Shown one piece after another: positions 3,364 through 12,935 of a DNA stretch of 64,000 nt. The notes beneath the pieces were generated by a model. It worked only from the letters and a program-made list of their open reading frames with translations. It did not search any database and was not told where the DNA came from. The stretch is taken from sequence record PZ379075.1; one strand, given 5' to 3'. Each line of letters begins with the position of its first letter. Within the stretch, counting starts at the first letter, position 1. The translations under genes and the position numbers were made by a program. This DNA is from a phage.

Positions 3364-4563
3364 ATGTTTCCAGTAACATTAGAAGATACTGAAGGTAATA
3401 TTTTAACAGTCAACCCTCCTTGTTATGGGTTCCTTCAGCTTCGCAACTATAACGGTGGCGTTGATGAAGACGATGAAGAGTATGATGACTACTTCGACCC
3501 TAACATGTATGAGGCAACTCATGGATGGAATATGCACGTTCGAGTGTGGCATGAAGAAGCTAACGTTCGTAGTGCTGATGGGGAAGAGTTCCTGTTAAGC
3601 CGAGAGATGGATATGTGTAAAATCAAGCATATCTGGAACTCTGGAACTCATATGAAGATGTTAGGTTTTAGACGTTGGCGTGATGAAAAGCATGTAGCTG
3701 AAGCTTTAAGTTGGTGTTCGTATGAAGATGAAGACACGCCCCCTAAGAACAACATCGAACGTTGGAACGACAAAAACCCTGAGCATCGAACCACACCTCG
3801 TGCTGTACTGGAAGCTATGGAAGCATTTGTGGACAAAGATCGTCCCTCCTGTTTACGCTGGCACGATAAAGGTTTTATGGGGGTAGCAACTGAGAATATC
3901 CCTGCTGATCGTTGTCTGTTCTATTTGATGTTAGACCGAACCTTCTATTGTGAAGATGAAGAGAGTCAAGTTGAAACCTTCCTCCATAAATGGTTGGTTG
4001 AAGGCTGGACAATCCTTCAGGCTTATGTTTACTCACGAATGGTTAGCACTTACACTAACCTCTTGGGAGAAAAGAAAGCAACTCTGGTTGGTAACGATTG
4101 GGATGCTTGTATCTTCCCAGCGTCGCTATTTACAGTCGGCATGGCTGATAAATACGCTGAAGCATTTCAAGTGCCTTGGCGTCAACAGTCATATAGAGAT
4201 GGATGCGGTCATTTCCGTGATGAAGACTTTAAGTGGATTCATTACGAGAATGATGAAACAGCAGAATTACGAGTTAACAACTCAATGTTCTTGCCAGTGA
4301 TGCACCCCGATCTAGTAAAAGACGGGTCAGAGACACTTAAAGGTGATAATCTTTTGGTTAACTTTACCCGTCGCGTGTCTAAAAATGAGAAAACAGCTAA
4401 CAGGTTAATCTACGGCATTCGTGCCGAGGCTAAAGACCTGTTCAACATCTACAACATCATTCAGCGATTTAGTAGTGGAACTCTGGACCAAAGTTCGGAG
4501 TATTCAGTGATTCCGTCCTCTGAGTGGGATGGTATTATGAGCGGATTATTTTTAGGAAAATAA
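3364..4563 (+). CDS. hypothetical protein (first gene of the amidoligase-associated cluster)
   Basis: 399-aa ORF, tightly packed with downstream genes; acidic N-terminal region; no recognisable motif. Confidence 0.6.
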   Translation: MFPVTLEDTEGNILTVNPPCYGFLQLRNYNGGVDEDDEEYDDYFDPNMYEATHGWNMHVRVWHEEANVRSADGEEFLLSREMDMCKIKHIWNSGTHMKMLGFRRWRDEKHVAEALSWCSYEDEDTPPKNNIERWNDKNPEHRTTPRAVLEAMEAFVDKDRPSCLRWHDKGFMGVATENIPADRCLFYLMLDRTFYCEDEESQVETFLHKWLVEGWTILQAYVYSRMVSTYTNLLGEKKATLVGNDWDACIFPASLFTVGMADKYAEAFQVPWRQQSYRDGCGHFRDEDFKWIHYENDETAELRVNNSMFLPVMHPDLVKDGSETLKGDNLLVNFTRRVSKNEKTANRLIYGIRAEAKDLFNIYNIIQRFSSGTLDQSSEYSVIPSSEWDGIMSGLFLGK

Positions 4564-4573
4564 AAGGTTAGTT

Positions 4574-5545
4574 ATGTCAATCTCCACAACGATCGTACCT
4601 CTTAATCTTCAACAGGATTTAGGGGAACAGAAGTTCTTAGGTCGTGGGTGCTTCGGTATCCACAACTACATGCAAGGTCAAGTCGTATATGATGTTAATG
4701 ACGAATGTGTAATGGAAGATGGGCGCCATAAACGCTTCAACCGTGACATTAACTTGCAATTGGAGATGTTGAATTACTGGACCCACTCTTTTCATGGTCA
4801 TGTTCCATCTGATATTGAAAAGAACTTGATTGAAACAGCAGACATTATGAATTCTATGTCTTGCTATCGTGATGTATTTACTATCACTTCAGCGAACAGT
4901 GTTGCTGTCAATCTTCGTGAGCATCCAGCAGATCAGATCTTCACAGGACTTATGCTCTTCCGTAGTATTCTGGAAGGGCAATATCGTGGAATGGATTTCC
5001 TAGCAGAAGGAATTGAAGACAGGGAAGAGTGGCTGAAGCGTAAACGCATCGGCATCGCTCTAGTGTTAGCTGGGTTGGGTCGTGACTTCTTCGGTGGGTG
5101 GTCTCAACGAGGAAGAGCCAATGGGAGTAGCGAGAGCACCTCTATTGTTATTAACAACAATATGTCAGCAGCAGCTTTCCTTCCTTTGGTTGTAGACTCT
5201 GATGAATATACGAAGCAAGTATGGGTTCAAAACCCCTTCGGTGTTGGCGACAATGAGAATGGTTATGTTCGTAACCACAACCAAGATGCCTTACGAAGAT
5301 TTGCTCGTGCTAAAGATCAAGACCCAGACGAGTATGAAACAATGTCAGAGTGGTTAAGACTCTGGTCCAACTGTTATGGTCACAAACGTGAAGCAATAGA
5401 CGACAAGTTGGGAAACATTACGGTACAAAACTTTACATCCCGACTGATTCAAAGAACTGGAGCAGATTCCGGTCTTACTCTTGAAGAAGTTGGTAACACA
5501 ATCTCATCTCTCTTTTCTGAACTAGTGGAGTATTACAATGACTAA
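4574..5545 (+). CDS. hypothetical protein
   Basis: 323-aa ORF; its stop overlaps the start of the next gene. Confidence 0.6.
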   Translation: MSISTTIVPLNLQQDLGEQKFLGRGCFGIHNYMQGQVVYDVNDECVMEDGRHKRFNRDINLQLEMLNYWTHSFHGHVPSDIEKNLIETADIMNSMSCYRDVFTITSANSVAVNLREHPADQIFTGLMLFRSILEGQYRGMDFLAEGIEDREEWLKRKRIGIALVLAGLGRDFFGGWSQRGRANGSSESTSIVINNNMSAAAFLPLVVDSDEYTKQVWVQNPFGVGDNENGYVRNHNQDALRRFARAKDQDPDEYETMSEWLRLWSNCYGHKREAIDDKLGNITVQNFTSRLIQRTGADSGLTLEEVGNTISSLFSELVEYYND

Positions 5546-6344
5546 GCGCAAATTTCTCATCGGCTCTGACCCTGAAATGTTCGTTCGTACTAGTAATGGT
5601 ATCATCACTTCTGTAGCCGGTTTATTAGGCTGCTCTAAGGACGATAAGATCGCTCTGGCTAAGGATGTTCGTCTCCAAGAGGACAACGTACTGGCTGAGT
5701 TTGATATTGACCCACAGAGCGGTTTTGAAGCGTTTAACGATAACATGCAACGTGGTATTGATCTCACCAATAATGTCCTGAACAAACTGGACATGGAAAC
5801 AGCTCCGGGTGTTAGCTCTCACATCTTCACTGAAGAAGAGATGAAGACCTTTAACGAATCAGCGTTCATCTTCGGGTGCACTCCTGATTTCAACGCCTTC
5901 ACTGGTCAGAAAAACCCATCCCCGACTTCTCAGAATAAGGGACTTCGTACTGCCGGTGGTCACGTACATCTTGGCGTAGTTGGTGCTTTGGATATCACTC
6001 TGCAAACTCAGATGATGCTGGGTGTGTTGTGTGACTACTTCCTGTCTCTCCCAGCAGTAATTATGGACAAAGATACTCGCCGTAAAGAACTCTACGGTAA
6101 AGCATCTGCAATCCGTTATAAAGACTATGGTATTGAATACCGTTCTCTGTCTAACTTCTGGATTAGTGATCGTGAAAACCGTAAGTTTGTTTACGATCAG
6201 GTTGACAAGGTTGTTCAGCAGTGTGATATGTCCACCCTGATGGCATTGCACTCTCGCCTTCCGATTGAGAAGCTTCATGAAATCATTAACGGGAACAACG
6301 TTAAAGAAGCTGACCAGCAGATCAAACTCCTTCAGGTAGCATAA
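5538..6344 (+). CDS. putative amidoligase-like protein, paralog A
   Basis: 268 aa; motif spacing shared with 6968-8071: acidic N-terminal motif (GSDPEMF), GGHVHLG about residue 143, GIEYRSL about residue 190. Family assignment from motifs only. Confidence 0.35.
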   Translation: MTKRKFLIGSDPEMFVRTSNGIITSVAGLLGCSKDDKIALAKDVRLQEDNVLAEFDIDPQSGFEAFNDNMQRGIDLTNNVLNKLDMETAPGVSSHIFTEEEMKTFNESAFIFGCTPDFNAFTGQKNPSPTSQNKGLRTAGGHVHLGVVGALDITLQTQMMLGVLCDYFLSLPAVIMDKDTRRKELYGKASAIRYKDYGIEYRSLSNFWISDRENRKFVYDQVDKVVQQCDMSTLMALHSRLPIEKLHEIINGNNVKEADQQIKLLQVA

Positions 6345-6353
6345 GAGGTTATC

Positions 6354-12253: not shown

Positions 12254-12260
12254 TCTGCTT

Positions 12261-12284
12261 TAGCCTCTTCGAAAGAGGAGGCTA
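12261..12284 (+). promoter_or_regulatory. perfect 10-bp stem-loop with GAAA tetraloop, no U-tract
   Basis: tagcctcttc-GAAA-gaggaggcta (one G-U pair) immediately after the 12068-12253 stop; not followed by a T-run. Confidence 0.35.
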
Positions 12285-12322
12285 GTTCGGATAAACTAAA
12301 CAAACCAACAAAGGTATAGATA

Positions 12323-12742
12323 ATGTCAGAAGTAATTTACGTAGCAACTTATGGTTCTCTTCGTCGTGGTCAAGCTAACTATTTAGTTAATGACCGAGCT
12401 GGTGCTAAGTCAATTGGTGAAGGTTGGACTGAAGATAACTTTGATCTGTTCCGTTACGGTGGTTCCTACTTCCCGAGCATCTCTCTCGCACACAGCAATA
12501 ACAATAAGCCTGTTCGTGTAGAAGTGTTTGCTACTGACAAAGCAGGTCTGGAAGGTCCATATGACCGACTGGAAGGTTACAACAAACGTAGCCCTGAAGA
12601 CAGCTTCTATCAGCGTACTCAGATTGCTGTTAAGATGGACTCAGGTGAAACTGTTATCGCTTGGATTTATCATATCGACGAAGAACAAGATGTTCTGGTT
12701 GAATCTGGCGACTGGTCAGAGTATCTGAAAAGTGAATCTTGA
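12323..12742 (+). CDS. gamma-glutamyl cyclotransferase-like (AIG2/GGCT family) protein
   Basis: N-terminal VATYGSLRRG (YGSL motif), RLEGY with candidate catalytic Glu, size 139 aa typical of the family. Confidence 0.6.
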   Translation: MSEVIYVATYGSLRRGQANYLVNDRAGAKSIGEGWTEDNFDLFRYGGSYFPSISLAHSNNNKPVRVEVFATDKAGLEGPYDRLEGYNKRSPEDSFYQRTQIAVKMDSGETVIAWIYHIDEEQDVLVESGDWSEYLKSES

Positions 12743-12935
12743 GAAAAGACAGGCTCTTCGGAGACTTGAAGCCAAGTATTTAATGTTACGGTGCAAAATC
12801 AACCGACATGAACGTTTCGTTGAAGCTGCACAAACCAAAAACTTTGAATCATCAGTGGAGATGTTCAAGACCCAACTTTCTTTTTATAGGAAAGAACAGG
12901 AACAAGTGTGGGATGAAATTCGTTCGTTCTACTAA
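12732..12935 (+). CDS. hypothetical protein
   Basis: 67-aa ORF with alternative start; coiled-coil-like composition. Confidence 0.35.
   Translation: MNLEKRQALRRLEAKYLMLRCKINRHERFVEAAQTKNFESSVEMFKTQLSFYRKEQEQVWDEIRSFY

What the first reader, a model, noticed from the sequence alone, without database searches (positions are those of the whole stretch)
3364..12935. Gene cluster combining amidoligase-like paralogs, an Ntn-type amidotransferase-like protein, an ATP-grasp ligase and a GGCT-like protein
Between 3.3 and 12.9 kb the phage carries, in one orientation and mostly with overlapping stops and starts: two paralogous proteins with amidoligase-like motifs (5538-6344, 6968-8071), a class II glutamine amidotransferase-like protein with an N-terminal Cys nucleophile fused to a Cys-rich zinc-ribbon region (8151-10133), an ATP-grasp ligase (10624-11816), a gamma-glutamyl cyclotransferase-like protein (12323-12742) and several proteins with no recognisable motifs. 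From memory, amide-bond ligases found next to an amidotransferase-like thiol peptidase or an AIG2/GGCT enzyme have been predicted computationally to make and remove gamma-glutamyl-type linkages on a protein or small molecule, but I know of no biochemically defined target in phages. This is my best candidate for a poorly characterised enzymatic system in the window. The three C-terminal-Tyr small proteins at 17162-17777 are one speculative substrate.
Basis: partly seen in the sequence, partly recalled or inferred. Interest (0 to 1): 0.8.

Follow-up and report, generated by a model that had tools for sequence, protein, structure and literature searches.

The report
Known phiEco32-type phage amide-ligase cassette
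This is the amide-bond-making and gamma-glutamyl-removing gene cassette first predicted by computer in 2009 in phage phiEco32; it is real and very widespread in phages, but its target has still never been tested, so the finding is correct rather than new.

Summary
The window is a phiEco32-like Kuravirus (97% identical to phiEco32). Region 3364-12935 corresponds to phiEco32 genes gp88 to gp76.

**Domain calls.** All five hold: COOH-NH2_lig (PF14395, a family named after phiEco32), Amidoligase_2 (PF12224), a Cys1 class II glutamine amidotransferase, a RimK/Ddl-like ATP-grasp ligase, and a GGCT/GGACT enzyme.

- The two ligases are not detectably similar to each other.
- The amidotransferase starts at an ATT codon.
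- Two 1-nt homopolymer deletions break the amidotransferase tail and the ATP-grasp gene in this sequence.
- One "motif-less" gene (11823-12071) is the known RNA-polymerase regulator gp79.

**Conservation.**
- At least 573 viral contigs encode a relative of the first ligase.
- In 63 well-covered loci, Amidoligase_2 and the amidotransferase are always present.
- ATP-grasp is present in 62 of the 63, and a conserved unknown protein (gp85-like) in 56.
- A primase/helicase follows in 53.

**A gamma-glutamyl cleaver.** Nearly every cassette carries either GGCT or a Peptidase_C26 gamma-glutamyl hydrolase, rarely both.

**Reading.** This fits a cytoplasmic pathway that makes and then removes a gamma-glutamyl amide. 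The target is unknown. The literature's peptidoglycan hypothesis is untested. The C-terminal-Tyr proteins do not travel with the cassette.

The parts
3364..4563 (+). gp88 homologue, 399 aa, unknown function; first gene of the block
   Evidence: ORF. No Pfam or NCBIfam match. PHROG 13063, 'unknown'. Sequence homologues found only in Kuravirus-like loci (7 loci). Similarity to gp87 was not significant.
4574..5545 (+). gp87 homologue, 323 aa, unknown function; probable conserved accessory protein of the cassette
5538..6344 (+). COOH-NH2 ligase type 2 (PF14395), predicted ATP-dependent carboxylate-amine ligase
   Evidence: Pfam E 2.3e-8, above cut-off. PHROG 3815. Six of 7 family members match PF14395. 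Invariant D11, H142, Y197, G198 and R202 across lineages.
6354..6971 (+). gp85-like protein, 205 aa, conserved unknown partner encoded between the two ligases
   Evidence: No Pfam match. An HMM finds the positional counterparts in 7-11, PaP3-like phages and RIO-1. Present in 56 of 63 complete loci. The order ligase, gp85-like, Amidoligase_2 is consecutive in 73 of 85 loci. There are 106 family representatives among 1.84 billion proteins, almost all stand-alone. The model's N-terminal domain is SH3/Tudor-like at low Z.
6968..8071 (+). Amidoligase_2 (PF12224), predicted ATP-dependent carboxylate-amine ligase
   Evidence: Pfam E 4.5e-8, above cut-off. All 8 family members match. Invariant E31, E35, D50, S52, H95, H97, R130, E186 and R188.
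8151..10180 (+). Class II (Ntn, Cys1) glutamine amidotransferase with a C-terminal extension carrying three CxxC...CxxC zinc-ribbon-like motifs. ATT start. Reading frame broken at 9938 in this sequence (in-frame ORF ends 10133; the tail is read by ORF 9968-10180).
   Evidence: GATase_6 E 8.4e-15. Aligned to GlmS 1xff, the Arg (SRHAT), Asn-Gly (VHNG) and Asp (DSEN) are conserved. M-C-G N-terminus in most lineages examined. Frameshift relative to phiEco32. Cys motifs at nt 9468, 9609, 9684, 10070 and 10145.
10183..10416 (+). DUF7195 small protein (gp82 homologue), 77 aa
   Evidence: PF23825 E 4.7e-17. The same family follows the amidotransferase in 7-11 and in a PaP3-like phage. The alignment suggests a strand-helix-helix pattern; this is inference only.
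10397..10621 (+). gp81 homologue, 74 aa, unknown; Kuravirus-restricted
   Evidence: PHROG 13464, 'unknown'. Found in 7 loci only.
10624..11816 (+). RimK/Ddl-like ATP-grasp ligase (gp80 homologue) with an acidic linker and an extra C-terminal domain. Split in this sequence by a 1-nt deletion near 11054 into ORFs 10624-11079 and 11106-11816.
   Evidence: frameshift. (family matches). E-x-N motif 'LEVNTAPG' at nt 11340. Homologues in 62 of 63 complete loci.
11823..12071 (+). gp79 homologue: RNA-polymerase-binding regulator (inhibits sigma70 transcription, supports the phage sigma gp36). Embedded in the block but not part of the enzymatic system.
   Evidence: Position equals phi32_79. Function from PMC12276001 and PMC8948821. 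Absent from 7-11 and other cassette lineages.
12068..12253 (+). gp78 homologue, 61 aa, unknown; Kuravirus-restricted
   Evidence: ORF. No Pfam match. Found in 5 loci.
12323..12742 (+). Gamma-glutamyl cyclotransferase / GGACT (AIG2-like) enzyme
   Evidence: PF06094 E 3.4e-17. YGSL motif at aa 10 and RLEGY (candidate catalytic Glu) at aa 82. Weak PDB match to UPF0131 PH0828. Distribution complementary to Peptidase_C26.
12732..12935 (+). gp76 homologue, 67 aa, unknown
   Evidence: ORF. No significant Pfam match. Found in 6 loci.
12962..14752 (+). DNA primase/helicase; the conserved downstream neighbour of the cassette (context, not a member)
   Evidence: Annotation of phi32_75. A primase/helicase follows the cassette in 53 of 63 complete loci.

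Best explanation
This is the phiEco32-type amide-ligase cassette, a cytoplasmic set of phage enzymes transcribed in one block with the early-to-middle genes just upstream of the replication genes.

Proposed mechanism:
- Three ATP-dependent ligases build one or more amide bonds on an unknown amine or peptide acceptor. Two are predicted glutamine-synthetase/GCS2-like carboxylate-amine ligases (5538-6344 and 6968-8071). The third is a RimK/Ddl-like ATP-grasp ligase (10624-11816). At least one of the bonds is gamma-glutamyl.
- The Cys1 Ntn amidotransferase (8151-10180) either delivers ammonia from glutamine to an activated carboxylate made by its usual neighbour Amidoligase_2, or hydrolyses a gamma-glutamyl amide as EgtC does.
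- GGCT (12323-12742) then removes an N-terminal gamma-glutamyl group as 5-oxoproline.

The gamma-glutamyl group is therefore made and later taken off, as a transient protecting or activating group or as part of a turnover cycle.

Shown here: the family memberships, intact catalytic motifs, conserved gene order, and the near-universal presence of a gamma-glutamyl-cleaving enzyme.

Inferred: the chemistry of each step, the pairing of the amidotransferase with Amidoligase_2, and the roles of the conserved unknown proteins (gp85-like, gp87-like, DUF7195).

Unknown: the acceptor and the benefit to the phage.
For: - Family assignments above Pfam cut-offs for both ligases, the amidotransferase and GGCT; ATP-grasp motif matches.
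- Amidotransferase catalytic set conserved: Cys1, the Arg and Asp that hold the glutamyl moiety, and the Asn-Gly oxyanion hole.
- Metal- and phosphate-binding Glu/His/Arg invariant in both ligase families across lineages.
- Same gene order in Kuravirus, Salmonella phage 7-11, PaP3/LUZ24-like phages, RIO-1, PA11-like O4, CW02 and StenR_269.
- At least 573 viral contigs encode a relative of the first ligase.
- In 63 loci with enough flank: Amidoligase_2 63, amidotransferase 63, ATP-grasp 62, gp85-like 56.
- Loci lacking GGCT carry a 215-aa Peptidase_C26 gamma-glutamyl hydrolase instead (Pfam E 1e-17). The counts are both 6, C26 only 32, GGCT only 24, neither 1. The single 'neither' locus is 7-11, whose GGCT lies farther downstream.
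- Two unrelated enzymes that both cleave gamma-glutamyl-amine bonds, in complementary distribution, point to a gamma-glutamyl linkage with a free alpha-amino group.
- None of the proteins has an N-terminal signal-like sequence (read from the translations), and the ligases need ATP, so the chemistry is cytoplasmic.
Against: - No substrate, product or phenotype is known. No experiment was found in the literature.
- The glutamine-synthetase-like fold of the two ligase families was not verified here. Profiles find no solved structure, and no weak GCS2 or Gln-synt hits appear.
- The ATP-grasp matches lie below curated cut-offs and cover only the C-terminal motif.
- The GGCT versus C26 anticorrelation is not corrected for phylogeny.
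- In this sequence, two cassette genes carry frameshifts. This copy may be partly inactive, or the sequence may contain errors.
- The conserved unknown proteins gave no informative fold.
Confidence: 0.6

Rival explanations
1. Peptidoglycan-precursor modification (the hypothesis of Iyer 2009 and Hardies 2013). The ligases rebuild or alter the unusual peptide linkages of the cell-wall stem peptide (gamma-D-Glu, D-Ala-D-Ala type) on cytoplasmic precursors. The amidotransferase and GGCT trim them. The infected cell's envelope changes so that further phages cannot infect, or so that lysis is tuned. This is a more specific version of the best explanation.
For: The literature states this repeatedly. 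The ATP-grasp enzyme's best matches include D-Ala-D-Ala ligases. MurT/GatD is an established precedent for ligase plus amidotransferase amidation of the stem peptide (background knowledge; PMC3267633 appears).
Against: - Never tested.
- The ATP-grasp enzyme matches RimK and MptN glutamate ligases at least as well as Ddl.
- The cassette sits with replication genes, directly upstream of primase/helicase in 53 of 63 loci, not with lysis genes.
- GGCT and C26 enzymes need a free alpha-amino gamma-glutamyl group. The stem peptide's D-iGlu has none, because its amino group is bonded to L-Ala.
Confidence: 0.2
2. Protein modification. The ligases attach glutamate or a short peptide to a host or phage protein, as in RimK polyglutamylation of ribosomal protein S6 or PafA/Dop pupylation. 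The hydrolytic enzymes reverse it. The conserved gp85-like protein would be the target, carrier or adaptor.
For: - RimK-family matches of the ATP-grasp enzyme.
- PafA/Dop are glutamine-synthetase-like ligases (background knowledge; PMC7947786 appears).
- A small conserved protein always lies between the two ligases, with invariant Lys110 and Lys160.
Against: - The gp85-like family has no conserved acidic or Gln C-terminus, and neither do the small ORFs of the cassettes.
- GGCT-type enzymes act on gamma-glutamyl groups with a free alpha-amine, which Pup-like isopeptide tags lack.
Confidence: 0.12
3. Nucleotide or DNA modification. The cassette, encoded next to the replication genes, makes an amide-linked adduct on a nucleotide or on phage DNA. 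This would explain the unexplained resistance of Gordonclarkvirinae to restriction-modification systems.
For: - The cassette lies directly upstream of primase/helicase in most lineages.
- The window keeps many EcoRV (35), EcoKI (9), EcoP1 (109) and EcoRI (12) sites, so site avoidance does not explain resistance to those enzymes.
Against: - The block has no glycosylase, transferase, kinase or base-flipping domain.
- gp85 and gp87 models show no DNA-enzyme fold.
- No report of modified DNA in the many other cassette-bearing phages was found.
- The BASEL authors point to the dCTP deaminase and nucleotidyltransferase instead.
Confidence: 0.06

Closest known systems
phiEco32 gp88-gp76 cluster (Iyer, Abhiman, Burroughs and Aravind 2009, Mol Biosyst; source of Pfam PF14395 'Phage phiEco32-like COOH.NH2 ligase-type 2')
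   Same: Same genes in the same order at 97.3% nucleotide identity over the whole 9.6 kb. Same ATT start of the amidotransferase.
   Different: The window has two 1-nt homopolymer deletions that break the amidotransferase tail and the ATP-grasp gene. Otherwise nothing differs.
'Putative peptidoglycan modification module' of podoviruses (Hardies et al. 2013, phage RIO-1; also PA11, LUZ24, PaP3, tf, CW02, 7-11, PhiM6)
   Same: Shares COOH-NH2 ligase, gp85-like protein, Amidoligase_2, class II amidotransferase and ATP-grasp, and the position upstream of primase/helicase.
   Different: Many marine and Zobellviridae versions carry a Peptidase_C26 hydrolase instead of GGCT and a shorter amidotransferase without the zinc-ribbon tail. 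Kuravirus adds gp88/gp87, gp81, gp79, gp78 and gp76. The name describes a hypothesis, not a result.
E. coli Puu pathway (PuuA gamma-glutamylputrescine synthetase plus PuuD gamma-glutamyl-GABA hydrolase)
   Same: The logic matches: a glutamine-synthetase-like ligase puts a gamma-glutamyl group on an amine, and a Peptidase_C26 enzyme later removes it. This combination is seen in the C26-type cassettes. The Puu enzymology is background knowledge.
   Different: No sequence-level membership was shown. The phage cassette has three ligases and a class II amidotransferase, and no oxidase or dehydrogenase. Kuravirus uses GGCT rather than C26.
Butirosin BtrJ (ATP-grasp) / BtrG (GGCT-fold) gamma-glutamyl protecting-group chemistry, and ergothioneine EgtA (GCS) / EgtC (class II amidotransferase fold)
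   Same: Both pair an ATP-dependent gamma-glutamyl ligase with a GGCT-fold or Ntn amidotransferase-fold enzyme that later removes the gamma-glutamyl group. EgtC is a weak NCBIfam match to the phage amidotransferase (E 2.5e-4). The enzymology is background knowledge.
   Different: The cassette has no carrier protein, PLP enzyme or methyltransferase partners. The similarity is one of logic, not of orthology.
MurT/GatD, and glutamine-dependent amidotransferases in general
   Same: A ligase that activates a carboxylate is paired with a glutaminase that supplies ammonia. This is a plausible model for the Amidoligase_2 and amidotransferase pair, which are adjacent in most loci.
   Different: MurT is a Mur-ligase-fold enzyme and GatD is a class I amidotransferase. 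Here the ligase is predicted to be glutamine-synthetase-like and the amidotransferase is class II. No ammonia channel or complex has been shown.

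Membership tests
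Class II (Ntn) glutamine amidotransferase | Cys as the first residue after Met removal (the nucleophile) | tested here: met
   An ATT start at 8151 is followed by TGT-GGC-ATC (Cys-Gly-Ile) behind an AGGTGGA ribosome-binding site. Six of the seven related loci examined, phiEco32 included, begin (M/I)-C-G; the annotated O4 start is the exception and probably lies too far upstream.
Class II (Ntn) glutamine amidotransferase | Glutamine-binding Arg and Asp, and the Asn-Gly oxyanion hole | tested here: met
   The alignment to the GlmS glutaminase domain 1xff places SRHAT on TRWAT, VHNG on VHNG, and DSEN on DTEV.
Class II (Ntn) glutamine amidotransferase | Profile match above the curated threshold | tested here: met
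   GATase_6 scores 55.4 bits against a cut-off of 27, and GATase_7 scores 27.8 against 25.
Class II (Ntn) glutamine amidotransferase | A fused or partnered synthase domain that accepts the ammonia | tested here: inconclusive
   The C-terminal 430 residues match no family. Adjacency to Amidoligase_2 is conserved, but coupling is only inferred.
ATP-grasp ligases (RimK / D-Ala-D-Ala ligase group) | Profile match above the curated threshold | tested here: not met
   Pfam Dala_Dala_lig_C scores 16.8 bits against a cut-off of 24, and RimK scores 15.9 against 21. NCBIfam rimK_fam scores 32 bits against 143. The matches cover only residues about 190-253.
ATP-grasp ligases (RimK / D-Ala-D-Ala ligase group) | C-terminal Mg-ATP-binding E-x-N motif, with consistent best hits within one superfamily | tested here: met
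   The motif 'AWVLEVNTAPG' lies at nt 11340. All significant hits are ATP-grasp enzymes: MptN 4.3e-8, RimK 7.9e-8, Ddl 1.2e-5, and PDB 7qys 1e-3.
ATP-grasp ligases (RimK / D-Ala-D-Ala ligase group) | Intact reading frame in this sequence | tested here: not met
   A 1-nt deletion in the CCCGCCCCC tract causes a stop at 11077-11079. The frame is restored only by adding a base, as in phiEco32, FS2B and Ec3-ASingh.
Amidoligase_2 (PF12224) and COOH-NH2_lig (PF14395), predicted glutamine-synthetase/GCS2-like carboxylate-amine ligases | Profile match above the gathering threshold | tested here: met
   Scores are 33.7 bits against 22, and 34 against 25. All 8, and 6 of 7, lineage representatives match.
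Amidoligase_2 (PF12224) and COOH-NH2_lig (PF14395), predicted glutamine-synthetase/GCS2-like carboxylate-amine ligases | Conserved acidic, His and Arg residues expected for metal and ATP binding | tested here: met
   Amidoligase_2 has invariant E31, E35, H95, H97, E186 and R188. COOH-NH2_lig has invariant D11, H142 and R202, within motifs DPE, GGHxH and YGxEYR.
Amidoligase_2 (PF12224) and COOH-NH2_lig (PF14395), predicted glutamine-synthetase/GCS2-like carboxylate-amine ligases | Glutamine-synthetase-like fold and demonstrated ligase activity | not tested
   Profile searches find no related solved structure. No biochemical report was found.
GGCT / GGACT (AIG2-like, PF06094) | Profile match above threshold, the N-terminal YGSL motif and a conserved Glu | tested here: met
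   63.6 bits against a cut-off of 22.8. YGSL lies at aa 10 and RLEGY at aa 82. That this Glu is the catalytic residue is inferred from background knowledge of GGACT.
phiEco32-type amide-ligase cassette (Iyer 2009; Hardies 2013) | Co-directional cluster holding COOH-NH2_lig, Amidoligase_2, a class II amidotransferase, an ATP-grasp ligase and a gamma-glutamyl-cleaving enzyme | tested here: met
   All five are present at 5538-12742. The block is 97% identical to the founding example.
Peptidoglycan modification system | A cell-wall precursor as substrate, or an altered muropeptide as product | not testable with these tools
   Only literature hypotheses exist. The free-amine requirement of GGCT and C26 enzymes argues against the stem-peptide D-iGlu as the cleaved bond; this is inference.

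The most novel reading that the evidence does not exclude
The cassette may be the missing explanation for why Gordonclarkvirinae resist every restriction-modification system tested, although they have no known DNA-modification or anti-restriction genes and keep plenty of recognition sites. It could make an amide-linked (gamma-glutamyl-derived) adduct on DNA or nucleotides. Alternatively it could make a small molecule or protein adduct that disables host nucleases. The conserved unknown proteins (gp85-like, gp87/gp88-like) would provide the target-specific steps.
Probability: 0.07. Interest if true: 0.85.

Novelty: already known. Interest (0 to 1): 0.33.

Why it matters
The cluster is the founding example of a cassette described by computer analysis in 2009 and noted in many phage genome papers since. 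Finding it again in a phiEco32-like genome is not a discovery.

It still matters as an open problem. At least 573 viral contigs from very different phages, including Pseudomonas therapy phages and abundant marine podoviruses, carry it next to their replication genes. Nobody has shown what it makes.

1. Nearly every cassette keeps a gamma-glutamyl-cleaving enzyme, either GGCT or a Peptidase_C26 hydrolase and rarely both. The product therefore most likely passes through a gamma-glutamyl-amine intermediate with a free alpha-amino group, which fits poorly with the popular peptidoglycan idea.
2. A conserved unknown protein (gp85-like) always sits between the two ligases, and a second unknown family (gp87-like) recurs. 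These are the best candidates for specificity factors.
3. Close relatives that infect E. coli K-12 (BASEL phages Bas90-92) exist, so knock-outs and metabolomics are feasible.

Tried and rejected
1. **gp87 and gp88 as paralogues.** MAFFT shows a shared 'PAD..LM..R' motif. BLASTP of the positional counterparts gives only weak links: 7-11 gp106 to gp107 1.6e-4, gp106 to gp87 0.006. hhalign of the gp87 family against gp88 is not significant (probability 0.2). Left open.
2. **Fold of gp87 and gp85.**
   - The afdb50 library was not available.
3. **Sequence or profile searches of the PDB.** Nothing for the amidotransferase tail, Amidoligase_2 or COOH-NH2_lig.
4. **Domain fusions of the gp85-like family as a clue to function.** The longer family members have no Pfam domains.
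5. **A Pup- or LysW-like tag among the small ORFs.**
   - gp89 ends in Gln and gp78 in Glu, but the C-termini are not conserved in other lineages.
   - The recurring C-terminal 'LKGI' of gp82 and gp81 and their 7-11 counterparts is most simply the Shine-Dalgarno sequence of the next gene read as protein (inference).
6. **The C-terminal-Tyr proteins as substrates.** They are confined to Gordonclarkvirinae.
7. **A phage-sigma (gp36) promoter in or before the block.** No perfect TAATGTATA lies upstream of 21922 on the + strand, and the motif is not enriched overall. Sigma70-like sites are not above the shuffle expectation.
8. **The search for related loci with the 8-sequence Amidoligase_2 alignment.** It failed for lack of a conserved stretch. 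The COOH-NH2_lig alignment worked.
9. **Primary papers not held in the library.** Iyer 2009, Hardies 2013, Savalia 2008 and Mageeney 2012. Their content is cited only through papers that quote them.

Full report
**Identity of the window.** The 9.6-kb region matches 99 phage records, almost all Escherichia/Shigella Kuravirus (Gordonclarkvirinae). Identity is 97.3% to phiEco32 over the whole length and 99.0-99.7% to several recent isolates. Gene for gene, it corresponds to phiEco32 gp88 through gp76, followed by primase/helicase gp75, the exonuclease subunit, nucleotidyltransferase gp73 and dCTP deaminase gp72.

**Checking the observation.** The + strand carries a tight, co-directional series of ORFs with overlapping or nearly abutting ends.

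- Pfam places 5538-6344 in COOH-NH2_lig (PF14395, 'Phage phiEco32-like COOH.NH2 ligase-type 2'), 6968-8071 in Amidoligase_2 (PF12224), the N-terminal 200 residues of 8151-10133 in class II amidotransferase families, and 12323-12742 in GGACT. All four are above the gathering thresholds.
- The ATP-grasp assignment is weaker but coherent. The only matches are ATP-grasp enzymes (RimK family, MptN, D-Ala-D-Ala ligases, RiPP maturases). They fall over the C-terminal catalytic segment that holds the E-x-N motif.

1. The ATP-grasp gene is interrupted. Relative to phiEco32, the window lacks one C in a CCCGCCCCCC tract, giving a stop at 11077-11079 and a second ORF from 11106.
2. A second single-base deletion (A6 to A5 at 9938) shifts the last 80 codons of the amidotransferase. 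Its real C-terminus, with a third CxxC...Cx4C motif, is read by the overlapping ORF 9968-10180.
   - phiEco32, FS2B and Ec3-ASingh have the intact runs.
   - EcP-vB has A5 and a different 1-nt loss in the same C-rich tract.
   - Homopolymer sequencing error is the simplest reading, but real inactivation cannot be excluded.
3. The amidotransferase starts at ATT (8151) behind AGGTGGA, as annotated in phiEco32. Most other lineages examined use ATG-TGT-GG.
4. The two ligases are not recognisably similar to each other. BLASTP gives E 3.3. Profile-profile comparison gives E 0.028 over a shared G-[ST]-I-E-[FY]-R motif. At most they are distant members of one superfamily.
5. The 82-aa gene at 11823-12071 is gp79. 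It is a characterised middle-gene product that inhibits sigma70 transcription and supports the phage sigma factor. It is absent from other cassette lineages, so it is an unrelated gene embedded in the block.

**Catalytic competence.** The amidotransferase keeps Cys1, the Arg and Asp that hold the glutamyl moiety, and the Asn-Gly oxyanion hole when aligned to the GlmS glutaminase domain. Both ligase families keep invariant acidic, His and Arg residues across seven or eight distant lineages. GGCT has the YGSL motif and a conserved RLEGY glutamate. These look like working enzymes rather than decayed domains, frameshifts aside.

**What is already known.** The cluster was described by Iyer, Abhiman, Burroughs and Aravind (2009) and by Hardies et al. 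(2013). Later genome papers call it a 'peptidoglycan modification cassette' or 'module' and list RIO-1, phiEco32, 7-11, PA11, tf, MR299-2, LUZ24, PaP3, CW02 and PhiM6 as carriers. Its proposed role is to alter the cell wall to block superinfection. Searches on phiEco32, Kuravirus, the Pfam identifiers, 'amidoligase' with 'ATP-grasp', and 'COOH-NH2 ligase' found no experimental test. The original papers themselves are not in the held library.

**Conservation and anatomy across phages.**

- tblastn of Amidoligase_2 finds 302 phage records in many genera.
- Annotated regions of 7-11, a PaP3-like phage, RIO-1, O4 (PA11-like), CW02 and StenR_269 show the same enzymes in nearly the same order, usually just upstream of primase/helicase.
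- A scan of viral contigs with the COOH-NH2 ligase found at least 573 encoding contigs, and 80 loci were fetched.
- Iterative HMM searches and clustering of their ORFs give the following counts for the 63 loci with enough flanking sequence.

| Component | Loci (of 63) |
|---|---|
| Amidoligase_2 | 63 |
| Long class II amidotransferase | 63 |
| ATP-grasp ligase | 62 |
| gp85-like protein | 56 |
| Adjacent primase/helicase | 53 |

The order COOH-NH2 ligase, gp85-like, Amidoligase_2 is consecutive in 73 of 85 loci.

**The conserved unknown proteins.**

- *gp85-like (window 6354-6971).*
  - It is a genuine core member. Its profile finds the positional counterparts in 7-11, PaP3-like phages and RIO-1.
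  - It has 106 representatives among 1.84 billion proteins, nearly all stand-alone at 180-210 aa.
  - Invariant residues include D6, Y10, Y11, T14, R106, K110, G111 and K160.
  - The model (pLDDT 72) has a confident N-terminal SH3/Tudor-like barrel and no informative relative.
- *gp87 (window 4574-5545).*
  - The model (pTM 0.77) has no PDB relative.
  - In the viral structure library, 9 of its 10 best matches are uncharacterised proteins from other cassette-bearing phages. These include RIO-1 gp7 and the protein just upstream of the ligase in the PaP3-like phage. The scores are weak (E 5e-3 to 0.4).
  - I therefore treat a conserved 'gp87-like' family as likely, not proven.
- *DUF7195 (gp82).* It follows the amidotransferase in Kuravirus, 7-11 and PaP3-like phages.

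**The most informative pattern.** Cassettes without GGCT carry a 215-aa protein immediately upstream of the first ligase. Pfam assigns it to Peptidase_C26, the gamma-glutamyl hydrolase / PuuD family (E about 1e-17). The distribution among the 63 complete loci is below.

| GGCT and Peptidase_C26 | Loci (of 63) |
|---|---|
| Both | 6 |
| Peptidase_C26 only | 32 |
| GGCT only | 24 |
| Neither | 1 |

The single 'neither' locus is 7-11, whose GGCT lies farther downstream. Fisher's exact p is 1.4e-10, without phylogenetic correction. Two unrelated enzymes whose common activity is removal of a gamma-glutamyl group from an amine are thus interchangeable, and one of them is essentially always present.

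From established enzymology (GGCT/GGACT/BtrG, PuuD), the shared substrate should be a gamma-glutamyl-X with a free alpha-amino group. This supports a pathway in which a glutamine-synthetase-like ligase adds a gamma-glutamyl group that is later removed. The Puu pathway, butirosin biosynthesis and ergothioneine biosynthesis all work this way. It fits less well with cleavage of the peptidoglycan stem peptide, whose D-iGlu amino group is blocked.

**Mechanism proposed.**

- Shown: the enzymes, their motifs, their linkage, and cytoplasmic chemistry (ATP dependence; no signal-like N-termini).
- Inferred:
  1. The two predicted glutamine-synthetase-like ligases and the ATP-grasp ligase each form an amide bond on a common, unknown acceptor.
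  2. The amidotransferase feeds ammonia to an activated carboxylate made by its usual neighbour Amidoligase_2, or acts as an EgtC-like gamma-glutamyl hydrolase.
  3. GGCT removes the gamma-glutamyl group as 5-oxoproline.
  4. gp85-like and gp87-like proteins confer specificity or act as scaffold.
- Confidence: about 0.6 in this general scheme. No single target rates above 0.2.

**Rivals.**

- Peptidoglycan-precursor modification is the published hypothesis and a specific case of the scheme (0.2).
- Protein modification of the RimK or Pup type is possible, with gp85 as target or adaptor.
- The DNA or nucleotide modification reading is prompted by two facts (0.06).
  - The cassette is constantly adjacent to replication genes.
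  - The BASEL report says Gordonclarkvirinae resist RM systems without any known modification pathway.
  - The window keeps 35 EcoRV, 9 EcoKI, 109 EcoP1 and 12 EcoRI sites, so site loss is not the explanation.
  - No DNA-acting domain is present, and nothing is reported for the other carriers.

**Verdict.** This genome is a near-copy of the founding example. Interest is modest (0.33). It rests on the cassette being a widespread problem open since 2009, and on the constraints added here: an obligatory gamma-glutamyl removal step with two alternative enzymes, and conserved unknown partners.

Noticed in passing
window 8137-8156: The class II amidotransferase has no ATG/GTG/TTG start. It begins at ATT (8151) seven bases after AGGTGGA, as in phiEco32. 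Most of the other lineages examined use ATG before the Cys codon. A rare start codon may mean low or regulated translation.
   Followed up: partly
window 9938 and 11054; L009 (EcP-vB) 7668-7700: Two uncompensated 1-nt homopolymer deletions relative to phiEco32 both fall in cassette genes. EcP-vB has a different 1-nt loss in the same C-rich tract (CC-G-C6, against window CCC-G-C5 and phiEco32 CCC-G-C6). These are either sequencing errors or a mutational hot spot with real inactivation.
   Followed up: partly
whole window (1-64000): There is strong avoidance of Dam and Dcm sites: GATC 123 against about 295 expected (z -10.9), and CCWGG 4 against about 101 (z -9.2). PstI and BamHI sites number zero, and 6-bp palindromes overall are depleted (649 against 959). 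EcoRV, EcoKI and EcoP1 sites are not depleted, although related phages are reported to resist these RM systems in vivo (PMC11990801).
   Followed up: partly
window 17162-17777: Three tandem small genes (65-69 aa) are weak paralogues (22-27% identity; invariant K3, W4, T24, R25, A28, R29, K32 and a terminal Tyr). They occur only in Gordonclarkvirinae (95 records). Function unknown.
   Followed up: partly
L006 (Salinivibrio phage CW02) 2-7801: Eight small proteins interspersed in the CW02 cassette all end in P-x-(L/I)-L-E-(E/D)-N-(V/I/L/A). The likely cause is a conserved translation-initiation or regulatory DNA element (GAGGAG... then stop/start overlap) read as protein. A paralogous small-protein family is the alternative.
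   Followed up: no
window 10183-10416; L002 12245-12469; L004 10800-11018: DUF7195 proteins show a conserved R-(K/R)-x-P-(M/F)-(T/S) strand followed by two helices. This resembles ribbon-helix-helix DNA-binding proteins, so they may be regulators rather than part of the chemistry. The L004 copy is not annotated in that record.
   Followed up: no
window 10784-10812: A near-consensus sigma70-type promoter (TTGTCA, 17 nt, TATAAT; 11 of 12 matches) lies inside the ATP-grasp gene. Phage 7-11 has an annotated consensus promoter just upstream of its ATP-grasp gene (L002 12728-12756). Promoter-like sites are not enriched over shuffles in this region, so this may be chance.
   Followed up: no
window 2791-2817: A terminator-like hairpin followed by a T-run (GACTCTTTTCGGAGAGTC CTTTTTT) lies just upstream of the gene block that begins at 2835. 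No comparable site lies inside 2835-13500, consistent with a single long transcription unit.
   Followed up: no
L008 (Stenotrophomonas phage StenR_269) 10440-14702; L003 (RIO-1) 10081-10302: Redox and folate genes lie directly after some cassettes. StenR_269 has a type 2 dihydrofolate reductase, a thioredoxin-reductase/glutathione-related protein and a cysteine dioxygenase. RIO-1 has a glutaredoxin. This might hint at a thiol or folate connection.
   Followed up: no
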